Origin: Promethearchaeota archaeon
GTDB lineage: Archaea > Asgardarchaeota > Lokiarchaeia > Sigyniarchaeales > Promethearchaeaceae
Assembly (NCBI GenBank): GCA_016933055.1
Contig: JAFGBS010000009.1
Span: 1 to 32,000, forward strand
Direction of reading: 5' to 3'
DNA: 32,000 nucleotides
Part shown: in pieces, positions 1-8,664 of the stretch
Position numbering within the stretch: position 1 is the stretch's first letter
Layout of the letters: each line of letters begins with the position of its first letter
Program-made: the position numbers and the translations under genes
Notes under the pieces: model-generated
Told to the model about the DNA's origin: nothing
Database searches by the model: none
The model's input: the letters and a program-made list of their open reading frames with translations, nothing else

Positions 1-225
1 GGAGGTCCCCAAGTTGTTCATCGATGGCAAGGGCTTCCTTGTAATAGCGCATTGCTTCATCCCACTCGCCTTTGTCATGGTATAATATACCGATGTTGGT
101 GAGTTCCTTTGATTTGCCCCGAAGATCTCCTAGCTGCTCATCGATGGCAAGAGCTTCCTTGTAATAGCGCCTTGCTTCATCCCATTCGCCTTTGTCGTGG
201 AGTAATCGACCGATGTTTGTGAGGG
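1..225 (-). repeat. 120-bp tandem repeat encoding TPR units of the SIR2-TPR gene
   Basis: tcatcgatggcaagggcttccttgtaatagcgcattgcttcatcccactcgcctttgtcatgg (18-80) recurs with 5 substitutions at 138-200. Confidence 0.9.
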
Positions 226-1330
226 TGATAGATTGCCATCTTTGATTTTTTGTTTCTTGAGCATGTTTCAATAGAATTCTTGCGCAGCGTTCTGCATTGT
301 TTAGAAAACTTAAGTTATCATATATTTCATATGGAATCTGGTAGACTTGATATTCATCGGGAGATTTAATTTGGGAGTTTATGTAGCTTAAGAGATCCGT
401 TTCACTATATGATTGGGAAATTTCTGATTTTCGTTTTATAAACAGTGTTCCGAGGTCAGATGTATGCATTTTTACACGGACCAATTGAGTTCTATACCCC
501 ATTCGATGAACTTCTTGGAAAATGTTGCCTACTTTATCCTTAGGAGAGATCTCGATATCTGAAGAAAATTCCTGAATAATTGGCTTAGTTCCTTTCGGTG
601 CATGTTCAATCCAGATTAGCTGATCAAGAGTGTCTAATAATCTCAAAGTTGGCGTAATATCGAAATCATCGCTTCCCGAATATCCCATTATCACCAATGT
701 GCGTCCATTAGTAATGCTCTCAAATACCGGACGTTTATGGGGTTCCAATTGGAATACGGATTCCCCTTCCTTCCCTGATCCGAATGCTTGAATGGTTACA
801 ACCAGACTATCCTTGGTAGAGGTGTTCGTAATAATATTATGAGGCGAACCGTGGATTTTATATACGGGAAAATAGCCCTTACGGACCACTTTTGGCACAT
901 CGGAATATTTTTTAAAATCTTCTTCGGTAATCACGGGAAGATTACGGTTTTTCTTGACTTTGGATTGCATTAGTGCATGTTCGATAAGGCAATCGAAATT
1001 GGTAGTGAGAACGTAATGCCCCCGCTTCATCATTTCTACCAGAAAAAAGTGGTTTGTATTCGGTTTATCGCACAATCCATAGTAATCAATGAGTTTCAAT
1101 TCCGGATCCAAATAGTCCCGCACAATTTCCACCAATTGCTCGAAACGTAAATTCTCCAACCCGAGAATTTTTTCTACTTCGGATTCTGCACATGTATAGC
1201 GGATAATCACTTCCATCATTTCCCGACCTAAAGGTAAATTCGATGGGGGATCACGGGAAATCCCTGCACCTACTAAAAACGTATATTTTCCCTTTTTTGC
1301 GAATAGATCTTTCAGTGTCAATTCTCCCAT
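1..1330 (-). CDS. SIR2-like (SIR2_2) NADase domain protein with C-terminal TPR repeats; 3' end lies outside the window
   Basis: Manual translation from ATG 1330 is open to base 1 (443 codons): MGELTLKDLFAKKGKYTFLVGAGISRDPP...VLTTNFDCLIE...VYKIHGSP...VIMGYSGSDDFDI, then 40-aa TPRs (ITLTNIGRLLHDKGEWDEARRYYKEALAIDEQLGDL). It is absent from the ORF track because there is no stop in the window. Confidence 0.92.
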   Translation of the reverse strand, partial: MGELTLKDLFAKKGKYTFLVGAGISRDPPSNLPLGREMMEVIIRYTCAESEVEKILGLENLRFEQLVEIVRDYLDPELKLIDYYGLCDKPNTNHFFLVEMMKRGHYVLTTNFDCLIEHALMQSKVKKNRNLPVITEEDFKKYSDVPKVVRKGYFPVYKIHGSPHNIITNTSTKDSLVVTIQAFGSGKEGESVFQLEPHKRPVFESITNGRTLVIMGYSGSDDFDITPTLRLLDTLDQLIWIEHAPKGTKPIIQEFSSDIEISPKDKVGNIFQEVHRMGYRTQLVRVKMHTSDLGTLFIKRKSEISQSYSETDLLSYINSQIKSPDEYQVYQIPYEIYDNLSFLNNAERCARILLKHAQETKNQRWQSITLTNIGRLLHDKGEWDEARRYYKEALAIDEQLGDLRGKSKELTNIGILYHDKGEWDEAMRYYKEALAIDEQLGDL

Positions 1331-1380: not shown

Positions 1381-2130
1381 TCATAAATTTTTCAATTTCG
1401 CAATCACACGATGTTCTAATTCGGGATCTTGACGTATTTTTTTTCCGATGCACTCGGGGCAAATTCGCATTCCAAGAACATGCATATATCCTCCTAATCC
1501 TTGTAGCATCTTTTCCCAAGATCCTTGTTTATATCTTTGGTAACCCACATTTACAATATCACTTATAATTCGACCGCATTCCTCACATCGAGAATCTAAA
1601 GAATTTCTTGCCCGATCTATGAGAAATCGTCTGGTTTCTTCATAATGCTCAATCTCTGATGTTTTTGGGAAGGAAGTACTTTTAGGAGTGTATTCTTGAT
1701 AAGATGAATCTGGTTCAACAAATGAACTAGATAAGGCGGTTTGTGGACGTTTAATAATCTCCACGATTTCTTCGGCAACACTTTCAAGGTCATGACTCGA
1801 AAATTTGACGCCCAATTTTGATGACAACAGTGCGGGAATATAATTCTTTTCGATAAATACAGGAATGATGTGTTTTTGTTTCATAAGAGCTGCTTTCCAT
1901 TCCATTTTCACTGAATCTGAGCTTTTCGTGAGGGAGGAACAAAATAATAAGAAAACATCACAATTTTCAATCCCGTAATCCATATATTCTACGATATCAT
2001 ATTTTGTATCTTGTTGCCAAAATAGAACTTTCTCAATTATTGAATAGCGTTCTAATTCTCGTGCTAACTGAGGTATACGAAACTGGTTAGCATCTTCGGT
2101 CACATAACTCATAAATATTATATGTCCCAT
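1381..2130 (-). CDS. TIR domain protein with C-terminal CxxC-x38-CxxC zinc finger
   Basis: N-terminal TIR: IFMSY, CDVFLLFCS, SVKMEW (putative catalytic E77), IIPVF. Ser/Pro-rich linker, then CEEC...CPEC. Confidence 0.88.
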   Translation of the reverse strand: MGHIIFMSYVTEDANQFRIPQLARELERYSIIEKVLFWQQDTKYDIVEYMDYGIENCDVFLLFCSSLTKSSDSVKMEWKAALMKQKHIIPVFIEKNYIPALLSSKLGVKFSSHDLESVAEEIVEIIKRPQTALSSSFVEPDSSYQEYTPKSTSFPKTSEIEHYEETRRFLIDRARNSLDSRCEECGRIISDIVNVGYQRYKQGSWEKMLQGLGGYMHVLGMRICPECIGKKIRQDPELEHRVIAKLKNL

Positions 2131-2155: not shown

Positions 2156-2314
2156 TCAACGCACACGCATAACATTTTCACACCCACAGTTCGGACAATT
2201 ATGTGGATCACAGCGTGAGCATACATTAATCATAGCATGACATTTTATACATCGATATTTGTGCATTCCGTAAAATGATGGTTCAGGATTTCCGCATAAA
2301 CTACACCTTTCCAT
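2156..2314 (-). CDS. 52-aa Cys-rich double zinc-ribbon micro-protein (HVO_2753/DUF1610-like layout)
   Basis: Manual translation: MERCSLCGNPEPSFYGMHKYRCIKCHAMINVCSRCDPHNCPNCGCENVMRVR*. It has four CxxC motifs, fills the gap between two co-directional genes, and is below the ORF-track length cutoff. Confidence 0.85.
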   Translation of the reverse strand: MERCSLCGNPEPSFYGMHKYRCIKCHAMINVCSRCDPHNCPNCGCENVMRVR

Positions 2315-2361: not shown

Positions 2362-4221
2362 TTACTTCTTAGTTTTCTCTTTCTTGATTTTTTCGTACAT
2401 TTTTTTTGCGCACCGGATAATATTGTTGTGATCAAAAGCTAGATCTATCTGCTCTATTTCAGTCAACGATTTTTTTACAACTGATACTACGTCTGTAGAG
2501 GGACGTAATCCATCGAGACTCTTCACTTCGCATAGATACGCATGAGAAACGATTTTGCCTCGAGGATCGCGATTTGGATCATCGAATAATTTAATAAAAC
2601 GAGCCTTTTTTACTTCCAATCCGGTTTCTTCCCACATTTCCCGTTCTAAAGCTTCTAATTTAGCTTCTCCTAACTCAATAAATCCCCCTGGGAGAGCCAG
2701 TTGACCTTGGAATGGAGGGAATTTTCGTTCTACTAGCACAACAAAATCGTCATAGGTCTCTCTCCCATCTTTTCCTACTATTTCGGAATGTATGATAACA
2801 CCATCCACGGTTTCGCGAAGTATGGATTTTCCTGACTTTTTCGCATAATTAGTCAAGATATAAATTACAATGATAGACGCAAAAATGAGAATAATAAATC
2901 CAACTATAGCACTAAGATAGCTTTCCGTAATCCAATTATTCCGACGTGCTTCAAAATAAGAAAATGCCAGTAACACAAGATCCACGAATAAAGACAGGCC
3001 AAATAAAATTTCTAACAAGAAAGTACTTTTTTGTATAGATTTTTGGTCCTGTTCTTGGATTTGATGATAACGATTTTCTAAAGATTTAGATAATTTGTCT
3101 AATTTCGTATGTAACCATTCAGAAATTCCCTCAATATTAAAAATCTGCATCAGATGATGCAAGATTTTTTTGTAATATCCGGATCGATTTACCTCCAACT
3201 CGTTATATAATTCACTGATTTTTGCGTCAATTTTTCCTACTAAGAATTCATGTTCTGCAATTTGATTTTGGATGGATTGTACCTGCATCTGTGCCGACGT
3301 ATTCATACTAGTTACTAGATCGTCCAAGGAAATACTCAATTCCATCATAGCAAATTTAAGGCTGCGAATTGCACCAACAGTATCCACTAAGGTCTTTTTA
3401 TAATAGAGGTCAAAGAATTTATCAAAATCCTTCTGTTGAATATAAAGAAATGCCGAACCCGATTGAATATAACTCAATTCCGTAGTTTTGTAGCTTAAAT
3501 TTTTCTGTAATTGTTGATTTACCGCTTCTTCTTGAACATCGAATGATTCCCAGCGTCCAGAATAAGGCACAATCCAATGATAAATAGACTTCTTATGTTG
3601 CATAATCGAGATAGGCTCCCAACGAAATTCTGGTTTAACACCTAGTCCCTCTATTTTATCACAAATTGTAGTCACATATAGAGAATCCTCATCTAAGTAG
3701 ATGAATTCGAAATTTTTGGGAGGTGCTTTTATTTCTGTTACCTCACCCTCGTAAAGATCTATGTTTTTCAATATCTTTTTTAAACAATGGATAACATATA
3801 CGGGAAATTCGTGTAAAATCCAAGGACGAAGGGTGCGTTTTTCTTCTGTATTATCTTTAAAATATTCTACTTCAAATTCAATCCATCCCGCTTGATTGAA
3901 TAGGGCTTTTCCGTTCTTAAATGGGAACCCACGTAAAGATGGAAGCCATTTCATCTGCAAGGTAATATGTTTCGAAATATATATTAGTTCATTTAGGAAT
4001 GTATCGTCCCAACTGGCGTTTTCTACTTCTTGCTGAAAAATAGACTGTCGCCATGGACTTTCCACTGTGTCTTGATACAGTTTAATTAATTCTTTTCTCA
4101 ATTTTATGATAATCTCTTCAGGATTCATGATAACTGTATTGAAAAAGGCATTTGCAAACCAGTATTCTTTTCGGTAGATGAACTTCAACGGTTCTTGATC
4201 ATAGTTCACCAATATTTTCAC
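2362..4221 (-). CDS. Membrane protein: large soluble N-domain + helical stalk + 2 TM helices (CorA-like topology) fused to a C-terminal ADP-ribose-pyrophosphatase-type Nudix hydrolase
   Basis: TM1 ~aa 400-423 (TFLLEILFGLSLFVDLVLLAFSYF) and TM2 ~aa 435-458. Intact Nudix box GGFIELGEAKLEALEREMWEETGL (~aa 512-535), plus DPNRDPRG and LAFDH motifs. GTG start. The Nudix call is firm; the CorA-like call is inference. Confidence 0.85.
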   Translation of the reverse strand: MKILVNYDQEPLKFIYRKEYWFANAFFNTVIMNPEEIIIKLRKELIKLYQDTVESPWRQSIFQQEVENASWDDTFLNELIYISKHITLQMKWLPSLRGFPFKNGKALFNQAGWIEFEVEYFKDNTEEKRTLRPWILHEFPVYVIHCLKKILKNIDLYEGEVTEIKAPPKNFEFIYLDEDSLYVTTICDKIEGLGVKPEFRWEPISIMQHKKSIYHWIVPYSGRWESFDVQEEAVNQQLQKNLSYKTTELSYIQSGSAFLYIQQKDFDKFFDLYYKKTLVDTVGAIRSLKFAMMELSISLDDLVTSMNTSAQMQVQSIQNQIAEHEFLVGKIDAKISELYNELEVNRSGYYKKILHHLMQIFNIEGISEWLHTKLDKLSKSLENRYHQIQEQDQKSIQKSTFLLEILFGLSLFVDLVLLAFSYFEARRNNWITESYLSAIVGFIILIFASIIVIYILTNYAKKSGKSILRETVDGVIIHSEIVGKDGRETYDDFVVLVERKFPPFQGQLALPGGFIELGEAKLEALEREMWEETGLEVKKARFIKLFDDPNRDPRGKIVSHAYLCEVKSLDGLRPSTDVVSVVKKSLTEIEQIDLAFDHNNIIRCAKKMYEKIKKEKTKK

Positions 4222-4497: not shown

Positions 4498-5460
4498 ATG
4501 GGACGAGAAATATCGGGTACTTGGCATTGTATAAACTGTGGTTATACCGCTAAGGGTACAGAATGGAACACGCACATTATTAAGACATTTCAGAAATTTA
4601 TGAGGGAGGGAGCATTTTATCTCTGCCCACAATGTAAAACCGAAACTGAATTATATCGAGGCAATGGTAAAGGTCCCAAGAAAATTTTAGGAACTTGGCA
4701 TTGTGCAAACTGTGGATTTACAACCTCAGGTGAAGTTTGGAATACAAAAATGATTCGATCGTTTCAGAAATTTGGGGACGTGGGAACTATATATCGATGT
4801 CCACAGTGCAATGAAGATACCGAACTATATCGAGGTAAAGGTAGAGGAGGGGGAAAAAAAATTTACGGATATTGGCATTGCGTGAATTGTGGGTATACTG
4901 CAGATGGAAAAACATGGAATGGTTTAATTGTCAAAACATTTCGTAAATTTGGTCATAAAGGAGCAATTTACTCTTGTCCCGAATGTAATAAACATGTTGA
5001 GTTAGATAGGGGTTCAGGAACAGTATTAATGACAAAAAATCTTGCTGAAAAAGCTCCAGTGAAAATTAAAACCGTTTTCTTTAGTCATTCAACCCGAGAC
5101 TTCAAAACATATAACATTCCTGAAATCGCTGAAAGGTTGACAAAATATTTTGATATAAAAGATGCAATATTTTGGGAAGAAGATGCGGGTCATAATATCA
5201 TAGATTTTATGGATAAGACCTTAGGTGTGTGTAATGTGGCAGTTCTATTCTGTTCCGCTAATGCATTAGCATCGGAGAGTGTAAAAAAGGAATGGACTGC
5301 CATTGAGAGTTTAAATAAACCGATAATTCCGGTTTATACAGATCCCGAACATATCCCACCACTTCTTGCTCCACGGCAACGGATTTTATTTGATAGGACT
5401 AAATTTGATAAATTCATTGACGAACTACATGAATTGATTCAAAAAATAGTTGAAGAATAA
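4498..5460 (+). CDS. Protein with three tandem CxxC-x28-CxxC zinc-ribbon repeats fused to a C-terminal TIR domain
   Basis: Three 58-59-aa repeats WHCxNCG(Y/F)T..G..WN...+.F.KF...G..Y.CP.C...EL.RG. TIR: VFFSHS, CNVAVLFCS, SVKKEW (E265), IIPVY. Confidence 0.9.
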   Translation: MGREISGTWHCINCGYTAKGTEWNTHIIKTFQKFMREGAFYLCPQCKTETELYRGNGKGPKKILGTWHCANCGFTTSGEVWNTKMIRSFQKFGDVGTIYRCPQCNEDTELYRGKGRGGGKKIYGYWHCVNCGYTADGKTWNGLIVKTFRKFGHKGAIYSCPECNKHVELDRGSGTVLMTKNLAEKAPVKIKTVFFSHSTRDFKTYNIPEIAERLTKYFDIKDAIFWEEDAGHNIIDFMDKTLGVCNVAVLFCSANALASESVKKEWTAIESLNKPIIPVYTDPEHIPPLLAPRQRILFDRTKFDKFIDELHELIQKIVEE

Positions 5461-6188: not shown

Positions 6189-6674
6189 TTAAGAATCTTG
6201 AGTTATTATTCCAATAAAAGTTGCTATACGCTGAAACCGTCGTGAAAGACCAAACCAAGCAAAACTCACAATAAATGAGATAATCCCAGACACCACTGAT
6301 GGTATGCTCAGTAAAAAAATACCTAATATCATCGTGGTTATCCCCCCAAGTAATACTATTGCTCCTACTACTTGATAAATATTAGATTTGTTTAGGTCAA
6401 AAGTTATATCTTCTATGTACTGTTTTCTTAGCTTCTCTTTATATTCAAGAGCAACTTGATTTTGCGAATCTTTTTCCAATACCTTATTAAAGCAAAGAGA
6501 AGCATTATATGGATGGTTTAAGAAAAAATGAAGTTTTCCTTTGTTTAACCAAGCATCAATATTATCTGGATTAATCTCAACAATTTGTTCATAACATTTA
6601 ATTGCTTTATACAATTTTCTATTTTCTTCAAATTCTTTTGCTTCATTCATCAGAGAAGATACATTTTCTGCCAT
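6189..6674 (-). CDS. TPR-repeat protein with two C-terminal TM helices
   Basis: AIKCYEQIVEINPDNIDAWLNKGKLHFFLNHPYNASLCFNKVLEKD is TPR-like; a hydrophobic hairpin lies at ~aa 100-142. Confidence 0.8.
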   Translation of the reverse strand: MAENVSSLMNEAKEFEENRKLYKAIKCYEQIVEINPDNIDAWLNKGKLHFFLNHPYNASLCFNKVLEKDSQNQVALEYKEKLRKQYIEDITFDLNKSNIYQVVGAIVLLGGITTMILGIFLLSIPSVVSGIISFIVSFAWFGLSRRFQRIATFIGIITQDS

Positions 6675-8129: not shown

Positions 8130-8258
8130 ATGATGTTAGATGGCGGTATGGGACACATGATGGATTGGTTTTTTAATGATTCATTACCTTGGCTCTATAT
8201 TATTAGCGGATGTATGATTTTTATCATAATAATTGCTTTGATAATTTATGTTATATGA
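8130..8258 (+). pseudogene. Truncated paralog of the preceding membrane protein (42 aa)
   Basis: MMLDGGMGHMMDWFFNDSLPWLYIISGCMIFIIIIALIIYVI*. It is preceded by an AGGTGA ribosome-binding site overlapping the upstream stop, shares HMMDWxFN with 7837..8127, and ends exactly where the FEN1 fragment begins. Confidence 0.6.
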
Positions 8259-8664
8259 TCCCCAAGAAATTTACGATACATACAGAATCAATCGGTTTCA
8301 ATTAGTGGATCTTTCTATACTCATCGGGAATGATTATACTCCCGGAATCAAAGGGATTGGTCCGAAGAAAGGTATCGAACTGCTTCACAAACATCGGAAT
8401 CTAGAACAGTTGCCTAATAAGATCCGAGAAAAAATTCCCCTTAATGTATCAGATATTGGGATAATTCGTTCTCTATTTTTAATACCGAATGTTCTAACCA
8501 CAATTCCAGAATTATCATTTACATATCCCAATCGGGGAGGCATTTTGGAACTAATGACAGTAGATCATTCTCTACACCGAGATCGAGTGAGTAAAGGAAT
8601 CAAGCGATTATTAAAAGCCCATTTTTTAATGAAAATTACTCATATTCAAGATAAGAGAAAATAA
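8248..8664 (+). pseudogene. fen1: C-terminal fragment (H3TH and cap) of a FEN1/XPG-family flap endonuclease
   Basis: QLVDLSILIGNDYTPGIKGIGPKKGIELL and RSLFLIPNV...PNRGGILELMTVDHSLHRDRVSKGIKRL match the FEN1 C-half. The N- and I-region catalytic core is absent. Confidence 0.8.

What the first reader, a model, noticed from the sequence alone, without database searches (positions are those of the whole stretch)
2362..4221. CorA-like membrane protein fused to an ADPR-type Nudix: possible prokaryotic functional analogue of the TRPM2 chanzyme
SEEN: about 400-aa soluble region ending in a long amphipathic helical stalk, two closely spaced TM helices with a short loop, then a Nudix domain. That topology puts both soluble parts on the same side of the membrane. 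The CorA GMN selectivity motif is absent. ESTABLISHED: CorA channels have a cytosolic domain-stalk-2TM layout, divergent CorA-family proteins are second-messenger effectors in some type III CRISPR systems (SAM-AMP), and TRPM2 is an ADPR-gated channel with a C-terminal Nudix-homology domain that is catalytically active in invertebrate orthologs. INFERENCE: an oligomeric pore gated by ADPR or a TIR product, with a built-in off switch. Any likeness to TRPM2 would be analogy, not homology.
Basis: partly seen in the sequence, partly recalled or inferred. Interest (0 to 1): 0.85.

Follow-up and report, generated by a model that had tools for sequence, protein, structure and literature searches.

The report
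Membrane protein–Nudix fusion beside TIR genes
An Asgard archaeon encodes a two-pass membrane protein fused to an intact ADP-ribose-type Nudix enzyme; it sits between NAD-cleaving TIR and SIR2 genes and looks like an undescribed NAD-derived signalling or defence effector, but I found no evidence that it is a CorA relative.

Summary
Window 2362-4221 (-) is a 619-aa ORF. It has a cytoplasmic alpha/beta domain, long helices and a stalk, two TM helices (398-425 and 430-461), and an intact Nudix domain (469-618). No GMN motif is present.

The Nudix domain is of the ADP-ribose type. Its best matches are the NrtR Nudix domain bound to ADPR, NadM-Nudix and the MJ1149 ADPRase.

CorA kinship is not supported. 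The CorA Pfam model does not match, and a profile-profile comparison with CorA gave 4% probability. The best structural match for the N-domain is the uncharacterised protein MJ0711, not CorA.

The fusion is not unique. 105 species-level genomes carry it, nearly all of them Asgard archaea. It was found in 64 of 301 Asgard genomes sampled, with a patchy spread. Nudix-less forms also exist.

The link to NAD-cleaving enzymes (NADases) is strong. The genome's only two clear TIR genes flank this gene. Both strong SIR2-TPR genes lie near the two paralogues. In a separate clade, at least 10 of 16 members have a TIR gene within 1.5 kb. Nudix-less members pair with SIR2 genes.

My best reading (0.45) is a Thoeris-like membrane effector that responds to an ADPR-type NADase product, with the Nudix domain as a built-in signal hydrolase. 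Pore formation and gating were not tested.

This scan has flagged the same family before on other DNA (e1-5393013, e1-4942378, e1-2536758).

The parts
2362..4221 (-). Whole gene, called 'T' in this report: 619 aa, N-domain + stalk + 2 TM + Nudix
   Evidence: ORF and translation; AF2 model with pLDDT 89.9; family found by HMMER and in 105 genomes
3436..4221 (-). Cytoplasmic alpha/beta N-domain (aa 1-262). It matches no Pfam family. Its most conserved stretch is aa 201-262, family consensus W..YSG.W.DY...R...NLSNR.SELH..NS.F.YM.
   Evidence: Model; column conservation; best fold match is MJ0711, Q58121, E 2.9e-8, TM 0.60 by hit. The window copy departs from near-invariant residues: Y229V, R237Q, N244Y, R245K, H250S, N255G.
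3031..3435 (-). Helical region and stalk (aa 263-397): helices 263-308, 314-344 and 348-360, then the start of the 363-427 helix
   Evidence: AF2 secondary structure, pLDDT mostly above 90
2947..3030 (-). TM1 (aa 398-425). The family motif is L-N-x-L-F-G-x-G-x-x-x-D/E; this copy has E404, G408 and D414.
   Evidence: Hydropathy; conservation N404 102/119, G408 103/119, D/E414 103/119
2839..2934 (-). TM2 (aa 430-461), followed by the basic stretch YAKKSGK
   Evidence: Hydropathy and flank charges
2368..2817 (-). Nudix domain (aa 469-618) of the NrtR / NadM-Nudix / ADPR-pyrophosphatase type. The Nudix box is at aa 513-535 (nt 2617-2685). RDPRG and LAFDH motifs lie downstream.
2156..2314 (-). 52-aa Cys-rich (four CxxC) micro-ORF between T and the TIR gene; membership in the module is unproven
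1381..2130 (-). TIR protein (249 aa): TIR domain at aa 1-125 (nt 1756-2130) and a C-terminal Cys-rich tail. It lies on the same strand as T, 231 nt downstream.
   Evidence: Pfam TIR_2 E 1.5e-14; invariant Glu in the V-K-x-E-W motif
2..1330 (-). SIR2_2 + TPR protein, cut off by the contig end. Same strand, 50 nt after the TIR gene.
   Evidence: Pfam SIR2_2 and TPR; it is one of only two strong SIR2_2 genes in the genome
4498..5460 (+). Divergently transcribed protein with three zinc ribbons and a TIR domain (320 aa; TIR at nt 5068-5433)
   Evidence: Pfam TIR_2 E 4.2e-12 plus zinc-ribbon hits; same TIR subfamily as the other T-linked TIR domains

Best explanation
T is the membrane-acting partner, most likely the effector, of an NAD+-cleaving defence or signalling module of the Thoeris kind.

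Shown here by computation:
- T is a two-pass membrane protein. Its large conserved N-domain and its catalytically intact ADPR-type Nudix domain both face the cytoplasm.
- Its family is an accessory gene of Asgard archaea.
- In several independent clades, family members sit directly beside TIR or SIR2 NADase genes.

Inferred:
- The neighbouring TIR proteins (sensor domains: zinc ribbons here; WD40 or beta-helix elsewhere) and the SIR2-TPR protein cleave NAD+ when triggered. The product is ADPR or a TIR-made ADPR derivative.
- That product is bound by the cytoplasmic part of T. The conserved aromatic/Arg/Asn/His-rich site of the N-domain is the more likely receptor, because Nudix-less family members also pair with NADases.
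- Binding is passed through the long stalk helix to an oligomeric TM1/TM2 assembly carrying conserved Asn and Asp/Glu residues. This changes membrane permeability.
- The fused Nudix domain hydrolyses the ligand to AMP-type products. That sets a threshold and switches the response off, as NrN does for the CRISPR CorA effector.
For: Architecture and model.

ADPR-type Nudix domain with a complete box:
-.
- REUxEE is kept in about 74 of 80 Asgard homologues, so catalysis is under selection.

Linkage to NADases:
- In this 3.76-Mb genome PF13676 finds three sites. The only two above cut-off lie 231 nt and 276 nt from T.
- The two strongest SIR2_2 genes lie 1.3 kb from T and 7 kb from its paralogue.
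- Across 84 loci, 11 of the 12 TIR ORFs found within +-8 kb lie within two genes of a T gene.
- A well-supported 12-member clade has TIR neighbours in 8 members. The window copy belongs to a different clade and is also TIR-flanked (tree).
- In a 301-genome sample, at least 10 of 16 members of that clade have a TIR gene within 1.5 kb. Chance expectation is roughly 1-2% per gene.
- The T-linked TIR domains form one subfamily with an invariant Glu.
- Nudix-less T genes sit 16 bp upstream of a 940-aa SIR2 gene (L121) or next to SIR2-TPR genes (L004, L080).

Other support:
- Patchy distribution typical of accessory or defence genes: 64/301 genomes, 19/70 genera, 10/22 within one genus.
- Conserved polar residues in TM1.
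- Precedents: CorA effectors obligately paired with, and sometimes fused to, a signal-degrading enzyme (PMC10600005); Nudix domains as ADPR sensors (PMC2330246); Thoeris effectors with TM helices or ion-channel annotation (bioRxiv 10.64898/2025.12.03.692087).
Against: - No experiment and no structural test bears on oligomerisation, a pore, ligand binding or substrate.
- The largest clade (about 59 of 99 tree rows) has no NADase neighbour. It sits in conserved synteny with housekeeping genes (nadA, gamma-carbonic anhydrase, ThiF, Roadblock, LSM). The family therefore also works without a dedicated TIR partner.
- Homologue contexts P0005, P0007, G011 and G008 show no defence genes.
- The window copy has lost several near-invariant N-domain residues, so its ligand site may differ or be impaired.
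- An intact hydrolase fits a pure signal-degrading role as well as it fits a gated effector.
- NrtR-type Nudix domains are dimers, which sits awkwardly with a pentameric CorA-type pore.
Confidence: 0.45

Rival explanations
1. T is a signal quencher or immunity factor, not an effector. It is a membrane-anchored ADPR (or cADPR-isomer) hydrolase that removes basal TIR/SIR2 products. This prevents self-activation or resets the system. The N-domain and TM part serve only for localisation or regulation, and there is no pore.
For: - The Nudix catalytic residues are strongly conserved.
- T is tightly linked to NADase genes.
- Degradative enzymes are obligate partners of signalling effectors elsewhere (PMC10600005).
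- The window locus already holds a candidate effector, SIR2-TPR.
Against: - Nudix-less family members keep the N-domain and 2-TM core, and they still pair with SIR2 genes. The core therefore has a function of its own.
- The N-domain motif and the polar residues of TM1 are the best-conserved parts of the family. That is more than an anchor would need.
- In the TIR-clade loci no other effector candidate is present apart from a small 4-TM protein.
Confidence: 0.2
2. T is a housekeeping NAD/ADPR-recycling protein. It would be a membrane-associated ADPR pyrophosphatase, possibly coupled to sensing or transport of an NAD-related metabolite. It is kept beside nadA in most Asgard genomes. TIR and SIR2 genes would then simply tend to insert next to it.
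For: - In 31 tree rows T is divergently adjacent to quinolinate synthase nadA, within a conserved gene order.
- ADPR pyrophosphatases and NrtR belong to NAD regulons in bacteria (PMC2330246).
- This genome has only four Nudix genes, and two of them are T paralogues.
Against: - The other syntenic genes (gamma-carbonic anhydrase, ThiF, Roadblock, LSM, LRR) share no common function, so the order may be inherited rather than functional.
- T is missing from many complete relatives, for example 12 of 22 genomes of one genus. A core recycling enzyme would not be.
- TIR adjacency recurs in two separate clades and at sites away from nadA, including this window.
Confidence: 0.2
3. T is a true but very divergent CorA/MIT-family divalent-cation channel. 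The Nudix domain merely modulates it or uses the imported Mg2+/Mn2+.
For: - The layout resembles CorA: a cytoplasmic alpha/beta domain, long helices, a stalk running into TM1, a short loop and TM2.
- A protein-language-model search lists an automatically named 'CorA-like protein' cluster at score 0.90, and a cluster in which 11% of members carry PF01544 at 0.88. These are leads only.
- An acidic residue is conserved in TM1.
Against: - PF01544 finds two canonical CorA genes in this genome but not T.
- hhalign of the T profile against a 21-sequence CorA profile gives 4% probability.
- There is no GMN motif.
- No CorA, ZntB or Mrs2 entry appears in the listed rows of the PDB, AFDB-cluster, Swiss-Prot or Atlas fold searches, whereas MJ0711 does.
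- The gene context is NADases, not metal homeostasis.
Confidence: 0.05

Closest known systems
Type III-B CRISPR CorA effector with NrN/DEDD phosphodiesterase or SAM-AMP lyase (Chi et al. 2023, PMC10600005)
   Same: Both combine a membrane effector (large cytoplasmic ligand-binding part plus two C-terminal TM helices) with an enzyme that degrades the signalling nucleotide. In some genomes the two are fused into one protein.
   Different: The signal there is SAM-AMP made by Cas10, whereas here the neighbours are TIR/SIR2 NADases. The degrading enzyme is DHH/DEDD/lyase rather than Nudix. The CRISPR protein has detectable CorA similarity in its TM region, and T has none.
Thoeris systems (TIR ThsB plus effector). 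Closest are type II (Macro-domain effector with TM helices, His-ADPR signal), type VII (SLATT) and type X (predicted ion channel). Sources: bioRxiv 10.1101/2024.01.03.573942, PMC11204291, bioRxiv 10.64898/2025.12.03.692087.
   Same: One or several TIR genes with varied sensor domains sit beside a single effector gene that joins an ADPR-family binding fold to TM helices. Distribution is patchy and island-like.
   Different: No listed Thoeris effector carries a Nudix domain or the MJ0711-like N-domain: there were no 'Nudix' or 'CorA' hits in the main text or the held supplements of the 29-type survey. T's putative ligand-handling domain is a competent hydrolase. The hosts are Asgard archaea. Many family members have no TIR partner. 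Defence has not been tested.
NrtR / NadM-Nudix / MJ1149-type ADPR pyrophosphatases (PMC2330246; PDB 3gz8, 2qjo, 2qjt, 2yyh)
   Same: These are the nearest sequence and fold relatives of T's C-terminal domain. NrtR shows that this Nudix subtype can be fused to an output domain as an ADPR sensor. Members with an intact signature are active ADPRases.
   Different: The output here is a membrane module rather than a winged-helix DNA-binding domain or an NMN adenylyltransferase. AraR, of the same subgroup, binds arabinose, so the ligand cannot be read from subgroup membership alone.
TRPM2 chanzyme (ADPR-gated TRP channel with a C-terminal NUDT9-homology domain)
   Same: Both fuse a membrane-permeability module to a C-terminal ADPR-type Nudix domain on the cytoplasmic side. 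This is my own knowledge of TRPM2 and was not tested here.
   Different: There is no homology in the membrane part (2 TM against a 6-TM TRP tetramer). The Nudix subfamily differs: the best hits are NrtR/NadM/MJ1149, and NUDT9 is not among the listed rows. This is analogy only.
MJ0711 (Q58121), uncharacterised protein of Methanocaldococcus jannaschii
   Same: It is the best fold match for T residues 14-410: E 2.9e-8, TM 0.60 normalised by the hit, 418 aligned columns. A protein-language-model search also lists the MJ0711_N family.
   Different: It is 322 aa, only 11% identical, and the match ends where TM1 begins. It has no Nudix domain. No paper mentions it, so it gives no functional information.

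Membership tests
CorA / MIT metal-ion transporter family (PF01544) | Match to the family HMM | tested here: not met
   Pfam scan of T gives no CorA hit. None of 40 family members hits CorA at E<=0.001. A whole-genome PF01544 search finds two canonical CorA genes at C17:139912 and C17:286300 but not T.
CorA / MIT metal-ion transporter family (PF01544) | Profile-profile similarity to CorA | tested here: not met
   hhalign of the T N-domain+TM profile (102 sequences) against 21 CorA sequences from related genomes: probability 4.3%, 16 aligned columns.
CorA / MIT metal-ion transporter family (PF01544) | GMN (or G-x-N) signature at the end of TM1 | tested here: not met
   TM1 of T ends ...AFSYFEARRNNW. 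GMN occurs in 2 of 121 family members, and there it lies before the TM region.
CorA / MIT metal-ion transporter family (PF01544) | CorA fold of the cytoplasmic domain and funnel | tested here: inconclusive
   The secondary-structure order is broadly CorA-like. All fold-search lists are filled by Nudix hits. The N-domain rows that do appear are MJ0711 and unnamed proteins, not CorA.
CorA / MIT metal-ion transporter family (PF01544) | Homopentameric pore | not testable with these tools
   At most four copies can be modelled, and there are no experimental data.
Nudix hydrolase superfamily (PF00293) | HMM match above cut-off, complete Nudix box GX5EX7REUXEEXGU, and Nudix fold | tested here: met
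ADPR-type Nudix subgroup (NrtR / NadM-Nudix / MJ1149 ADPRase) | Nearest relatives by sequence and fold are ADPR-binding or ADPR-hydrolysing members, with shared downstream motifs | tested here: met
   NCBIfam top hits are NadM-Nudix and NtrR. The PDB sequence search gives 2yyh, 3i9x, 2fml, 2qjt and 2qjo, with RDPR and LAFDH aligned. Foldseek/VIA top hit is 3gz8, NrtR+ADPR. Swiss-Prot top hits are MJ1149 ADPRase and NtrR.
ADPR-type Nudix subgroup (NrtR / NadM-Nudix / MJ1149 ADPRase) | ADPR is the preferred substrate or ligand | not testable with these tools
   This needs an enzyme assay. AraR, of the same subgroup, binds arabinose.
Thoeris-type TIR signalling defence system | TIR gene(s) with a conserved catalytic-type Glu adjacent to a non-TIR effector gene, with the pairing recurring across genomes | tested here: met
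   Two TIR genes flank T. The pairing recurs in two T clades and in at least 10 further genomes. A Glu is invariant in all T-linked TIR domains.
Thoeris-type TIR signalling defence system | The effector is activated by the TIR-made nucleotide, and the system protects against viruses | not testable with these tools
   No biochemical or infection data exist. No paper describing this pairing was found.
TRPM2-type chanzyme | TRP-family 6-TM channel with an NUDT9-homology domain | tested here: not met
   T has only two TM helices. The nearest Nudix relatives are NrtR, NadM and MJ1149. This is analogy only.
MJ0711_N-like domain family | Fold similarity over the whole N-domain | tested here: met
   Q58121 aligned at 2-319 to T 14-410, E 2.9e-8, TM 0.60 by hit. 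The Pfam model PF27233 named by the Atlas is not in the local library, so no HMM test was possible.

The most novel reading that the evidence does not exclude
T and its family are ligand-gated channel-enzymes of Asgard archaea. ADPR, or a TIR-made ADPR derivative produced by neighbouring NADases, would open an oligomeric two-TM pore. Some of those NADases are receptor-like, with outside beta-helix or WD40 domains. The fused Nudix domain would then hydrolyse the ligand to close the pore. This would be an independent invention of the TRPM2 logic and a new Thoeris-type effector class in the closest prokaryotic relatives of eukaryotes.
Probability: 0.3. Interest if true: 0.9.

Novelty: new variant of a known kind. 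Interest (0 to 1): 0.72.

Why it matters
TIR- and SIR2-based NAD+ cleavage is a shared immune principle of bacteria, plants and animals. How it operates in Asgard archaea, the closest known relatives of eukaryotes, is almost unexplored.

This family is common there (about a fifth of sampled genomes). It has no described function, and it is repeatedly wired to NADases, some of which are receptor-like membrane TIR proteins. If it is an ADPR-responsive membrane effector with a built-in hydrolase, three things would follow:
- It would add a new effector class to TIR signalling.
- It would give a prokaryotic counterpart to the TRPM2 channel-enzyme design.
- It would provide a small, tractable single-protein system for studying how NAD-derived nucleotides are read out at a membrane.

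Even under the more modest reading, a membrane-bound signal quencher, it would be the first Nudix-based regulator assigned to such systems.

Tried and rejected
1. AF2 with only two sequences gave a useless model (pLDDT 42). It was replaced by the 66-sequence run.
2. The search for homologous proteins, with the single protein and with the alignment, returned only the protein itself and one homologue. The exhaustive HMMER search and the genome scan were needed to find the family.
3. All fold searches with the full-length model are dominated by Nudix hits: pdb, pdb_via_wide, afdb_clusters, afdb_swissprot and atlas.
4. Complex prediction with four copies of residues 258-468 returned no verdict (score 0.26, mark 0.42). 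This is not evidence either way.
5. The Atlas holds no model of T or of the Nudix-less member P0027, so no structure-based Atlas search was possible.
6. PF27230 is not in the local Pfam library.
7. I considered nadA synteny as a functional clue. I set it aside as probably inherited gene order, because the other syntenic genes are functionally unrelated.
8. The contexts of homologues P0005, P0007 and P0006, and of the G011/G008 copies, show no NADase or defence genes.
9. Literature searches found no description of this fusion or pairing: Nudix+TIR+Asgard, Thoeris+Nudix, MJ0711, and the held supplements of the Thoeris survey.
Full report
**What is there**

The finding's coordinates hold a single ORF on the minus strand, 2362-4221, of 619 codons with a GTG start. 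A TATA-like T/A run lies about 35 nt upstream. The start may be up to four codons later, because the database copy has 615 aa.

Hydropathy gives exactly two TM segments, 398-425 and 430-461. The flanks on the N- and C-terminal sides are more basic than the short loop, so both soluble parts should be cytoplasmic.

Pfam recognises only a C-terminal NUDIX domain, 491-598, E 1.9e-15. The Nudix box is complete at 513-535.

With a 66-sequence alignment AF2 gives a confident model, mean pLDDT 89.9:
- an alpha/beta domain at 12-260;
- helices at 263-308, 314-344 and 348-360;
- a 65-residue helix at 363-427 that becomes TM1;
- TM2 at 431-463;
- the Nudix fold at 469-618.

**The Nudix domain**

All lines of evidence place it in the ADPR-type subgroup.
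- NCBIfam: the best matches are NadM-Nudix and the ADPR-responsive repressor NtrR.
- PDB sequence search: 2yyh (E 2.6e-19) and 3i9x are the best matches, and NadM-Nudix 2qjt/2qjo are also listed. The printed 2yyh and 3i9x alignments share the downstream RDPR and (L)AFDH motifs.
- Swiss-Prot models: the top hits are the M. jannaschii ADP-ribose pyrophosphatase and NtrR.

In the NrtR family an intact Nudix signature goes with real ADPR pyrophosphatase activity, and the domain can also act as an ADPR sensor (PMC2330246). Among Asgard homologues REUxEE is retained in about 74 of 80, so catalysis is under selection. A few distant members have degenerate boxes. The substrate itself cannot be read from sequence: AraR, of the same subgroup, binds arabinose.

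**Is it CorA-like?**

Only in outline.
- The CorA Pfam model does not hit T or any of 40 relatives.
- The same model finds two canonical CorA genes elsewhere in this genome.
- A profile of 102 family members compared with a profile of 21 CorA proteins from related genomes gives 4% probability.
- Every fold-search list is saturated with Nudix hits.
- The N-domain rows that do surface are the uncharacterised MJ0711 (E 2.9e-8, TM 0.60 by hit, T residues 14-410) and unnamed proteins, never CorA, ZntB or Mrs2.
- A language-model search lists an automatically named 'CorA-like' cluster at 0.90. That is a lead only.

An earlier follow-up in this scan on another genome calls the family 'CorA-fold' (e1-5393013). 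I could not reproduce that here.

**The family**

An exhaustive HMMER search with the N-terminal 470 residues found 66 representatives. About 20 carry the same C-terminal Nudix domain, and others of 400-480 aa lack it.

A scan of one genome per species found 105 matches. The 80 loci kept are nearly all Promethearchaeota and other Asgard lineages, plus a few Myxococcota. They match over residues ~10-605, that is, including the Nudix domain.

In an even sample of 301 Asgard genomes the family is present in 64 (30 of 90 high-quality genomes; 19 of 70 genera). It is patchy even within genera: 10 of 22 in one genus, 27 of 28 in another, 0 of 4 in two more. That pattern fits an accessory gene.

The best-conserved part of the whole family is a stretch just before the long helices, rich in Trp/Tyr, Arg, Asn, Ser and His (consensus W..YSG.W.DY...R...NLSNR.SELH..NS.F.YM). 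A TM1 motif with Asn, Gly-x-Gly and Asp/Glu is also conserved. The window copy and its nearest homologue depart from several of these near-invariant residues: Y229V, R237Q, N244Y, R245K (the homologue keeps Arg here), H250S, N255G and N404E. Their site may therefore have a changed specificity.

**Context in the window**

On the minus strand, T is followed by:
- a 52-aa Cys-rich micro-ORF;
- a 249-aa TIR protein;
- a SIR2_2-TPR protein that is cut by the contig end.

The gaps are 25-50 nt, so this is plausibly one operon. A triple-zinc-ribbon TIR protein is transcribed divergently, 276 nt upstream.

In the whole 3.76-Mb genome:
- PF13676 finds only three sites, and the two above cut-off are these two genes.
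- The genome has a second T paralogue (578 aa, 41% identical) on another contig.
- The two strongest SIR2_2 genes lie 1.3 kb from T and 7 kb from that paralogue.

**Context elsewhere**

I called ORFs in all 84 loci and clustered them.

The largest T clade sits in a conserved order: nadA (divergent), T, gamma-carbonic-anhydrase-like protein, ThiF, Roadblock, LSM. These genes share no theme, so I read this as inherited synteny. The nadA adjacency is still worth noting for an ADPR-type enzyme.

A separate, well-supported clade of 12 members (about 575 aa) has TIR neighbours in 8. The partners are cytosolic WD40-TIR proteins or receptor-like proteins (signal/TM, then beta-helix or WD40, then TM, then TIR), often with a small 4-TM protein in between.

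Eleven of the twelve TIR ORFs found anywhere in the +-8 kb flanks lie within two genes of a T gene. Where a genome has two T copies side by side (L017, L027), the TIR gene flanks the copy of this clade, not the nadA-linked one.

I then cross-matched two phylum-wide searches. At least 10 of 16 genes of this clade have a TIR of the same subfamily within 1.5 kb. These genomes carry 1-14 such TIR genes in 3-4 Mb, so chance gives roughly 1-2% per gene. Two loci have four TIR genes within 8 kb of T.

The window's T belongs to a third, more divergent clade, so its TIR linkage arose separately. All T-linked TIR domains form one subfamily with an invariant Glu in a V-(D/K)-x-E-W motif.

Nudix-less members also pair with NADases:
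- In a genome of the same family as this one, a 443-aa T lies 16 bp upstream of a 940-aa SIR2_2 protein.
- L004 and L080 have SIR2-TPR neighbours.

Other copies have no such neighbours.

**Interpretation**

The recurrent, independent coupling to two unrelated NAD+-cleaving families, together with an ADPR-type Nudix domain, makes a role in handling an NAD-derived nucleotide the best-supported statement.

Nudix-less forms keep both the NADase linkage and the conserved N-domain site. I therefore infer that the N-domain-stalk-2TM core is the responding unit, and that the Nudix domain is an added hydrolase that sets a threshold or resets the response.

This mirrors the type III CRISPR CorA effector, which is obligately paired with a signal-degrading enzyme and sometimes fused to it (PMC10600005). 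It also mirrors Thoeris systems, whose effectors include TM proteins and a predicted ion channel.

I found no paper describing a Nudix-bearing or MJ0711-like Thoeris effector. The 29-type survey does not mention Nudix or CorA in its text or its held supplements.

The pore, the gating and the substrate are all inference. Rival readings remain open: a pure signal quencher, a housekeeping ADPR enzyme, or a divergent metal channel.

**Verdict**

The ADPR-type Nudix assignment and the TIR link hold. CorA kinship is not shown. The TRPM2 comparison is analogy only.
- Relative to the literature this is a new variant of a known kind: a TIR/SIR2 NADase module with a new effector or partner.
- The same family has already been flagged by this scan in other Asgard genomes and in this genome's second copy.

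Noticed in passing
G000:C35:25398-27100 (locus L117:9966-11702): This genome has a second paralogue of the same fusion, 578 aa and 41% identical (equal or near-equal to P0004). It lies beside a VapBC pair and a copper-type P-type ATPase, with an 822-aa SIR2_2-TPR gene 7 kb upstream.
   Followed up: partly
L022:3516-7790, L081:73-4287, L060:6059-7690, L081:9878-11920: Several T-linked TIR proteins look like receptors. They have an N-terminal signal or TM segment, a large beta-helix or WD40 region, a second TM segment and then a C-terminal TIR domain. Others (1220-aa WD40-TIR proteins) have no TM segment.
   Followed up: partly
L051:3504-3944, L022:9899-10318, L063:5137-5553, L027:15488-15928: In four loci a conserved ~140-aa protein with about four TM segments and no Pfam match sits next to the WD40-TIR gene of the T module: between it and T in L022 and L063, on its far side in L051 and L027. 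It may be a third component.
   Followed up: no
window 2156-2314 (-): A 52-aa ORF with four CxxC pairs fills the gap between T and the TIR gene, with an AG-rich stretch upstream. It may be a zinc micro-protein. I did not check whether it is conserved in other loci.
   Followed up: partly
L121:1684-5853 (G006:C395): A Nudix-less T (443 aa) is followed after 16 bp by a 940-aa SIR2_2 protein, in a genome of the same family as this one. It looks like a two-gene operon and matches earlier scan note e1-2536758.
   Followed up: partly
window 8248-8664 (+): A 138-aa ORF matches only the C-terminal third of archaeal flap endonuclease FEN1 (model positions 215-326 of 338). It is either a truncated gene or a gene fragment.
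   Followed up: no
window 6189-6674 (-): A small TPR protein has a weak C-terminal match to the cyanobacterial TRADD-N-associated 2-TM domain (PF20712, E 0.007). It lies 700 nt beyond the divergent TIR gene and could be another conflict-system component.
   Followed up: no
G246:C114:3600-16400 and G025:C4:16500-25500: These are TIR-rich islands: four TIR genes of the same subfamily lie within about 8 kb of a single T gene. This resembles Thoeris loci that carry several thsB genes.
   Followed up: no
L005-L084, nadA-linked clade: In about 30 Asgard genomes T is divergently adjacent to quinolinate synthase nadA and is followed after ~13 bp by a gamma-carbonic-anhydrase-like gene. Whether T and nadA share regulation is open.
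   Followed up: partly
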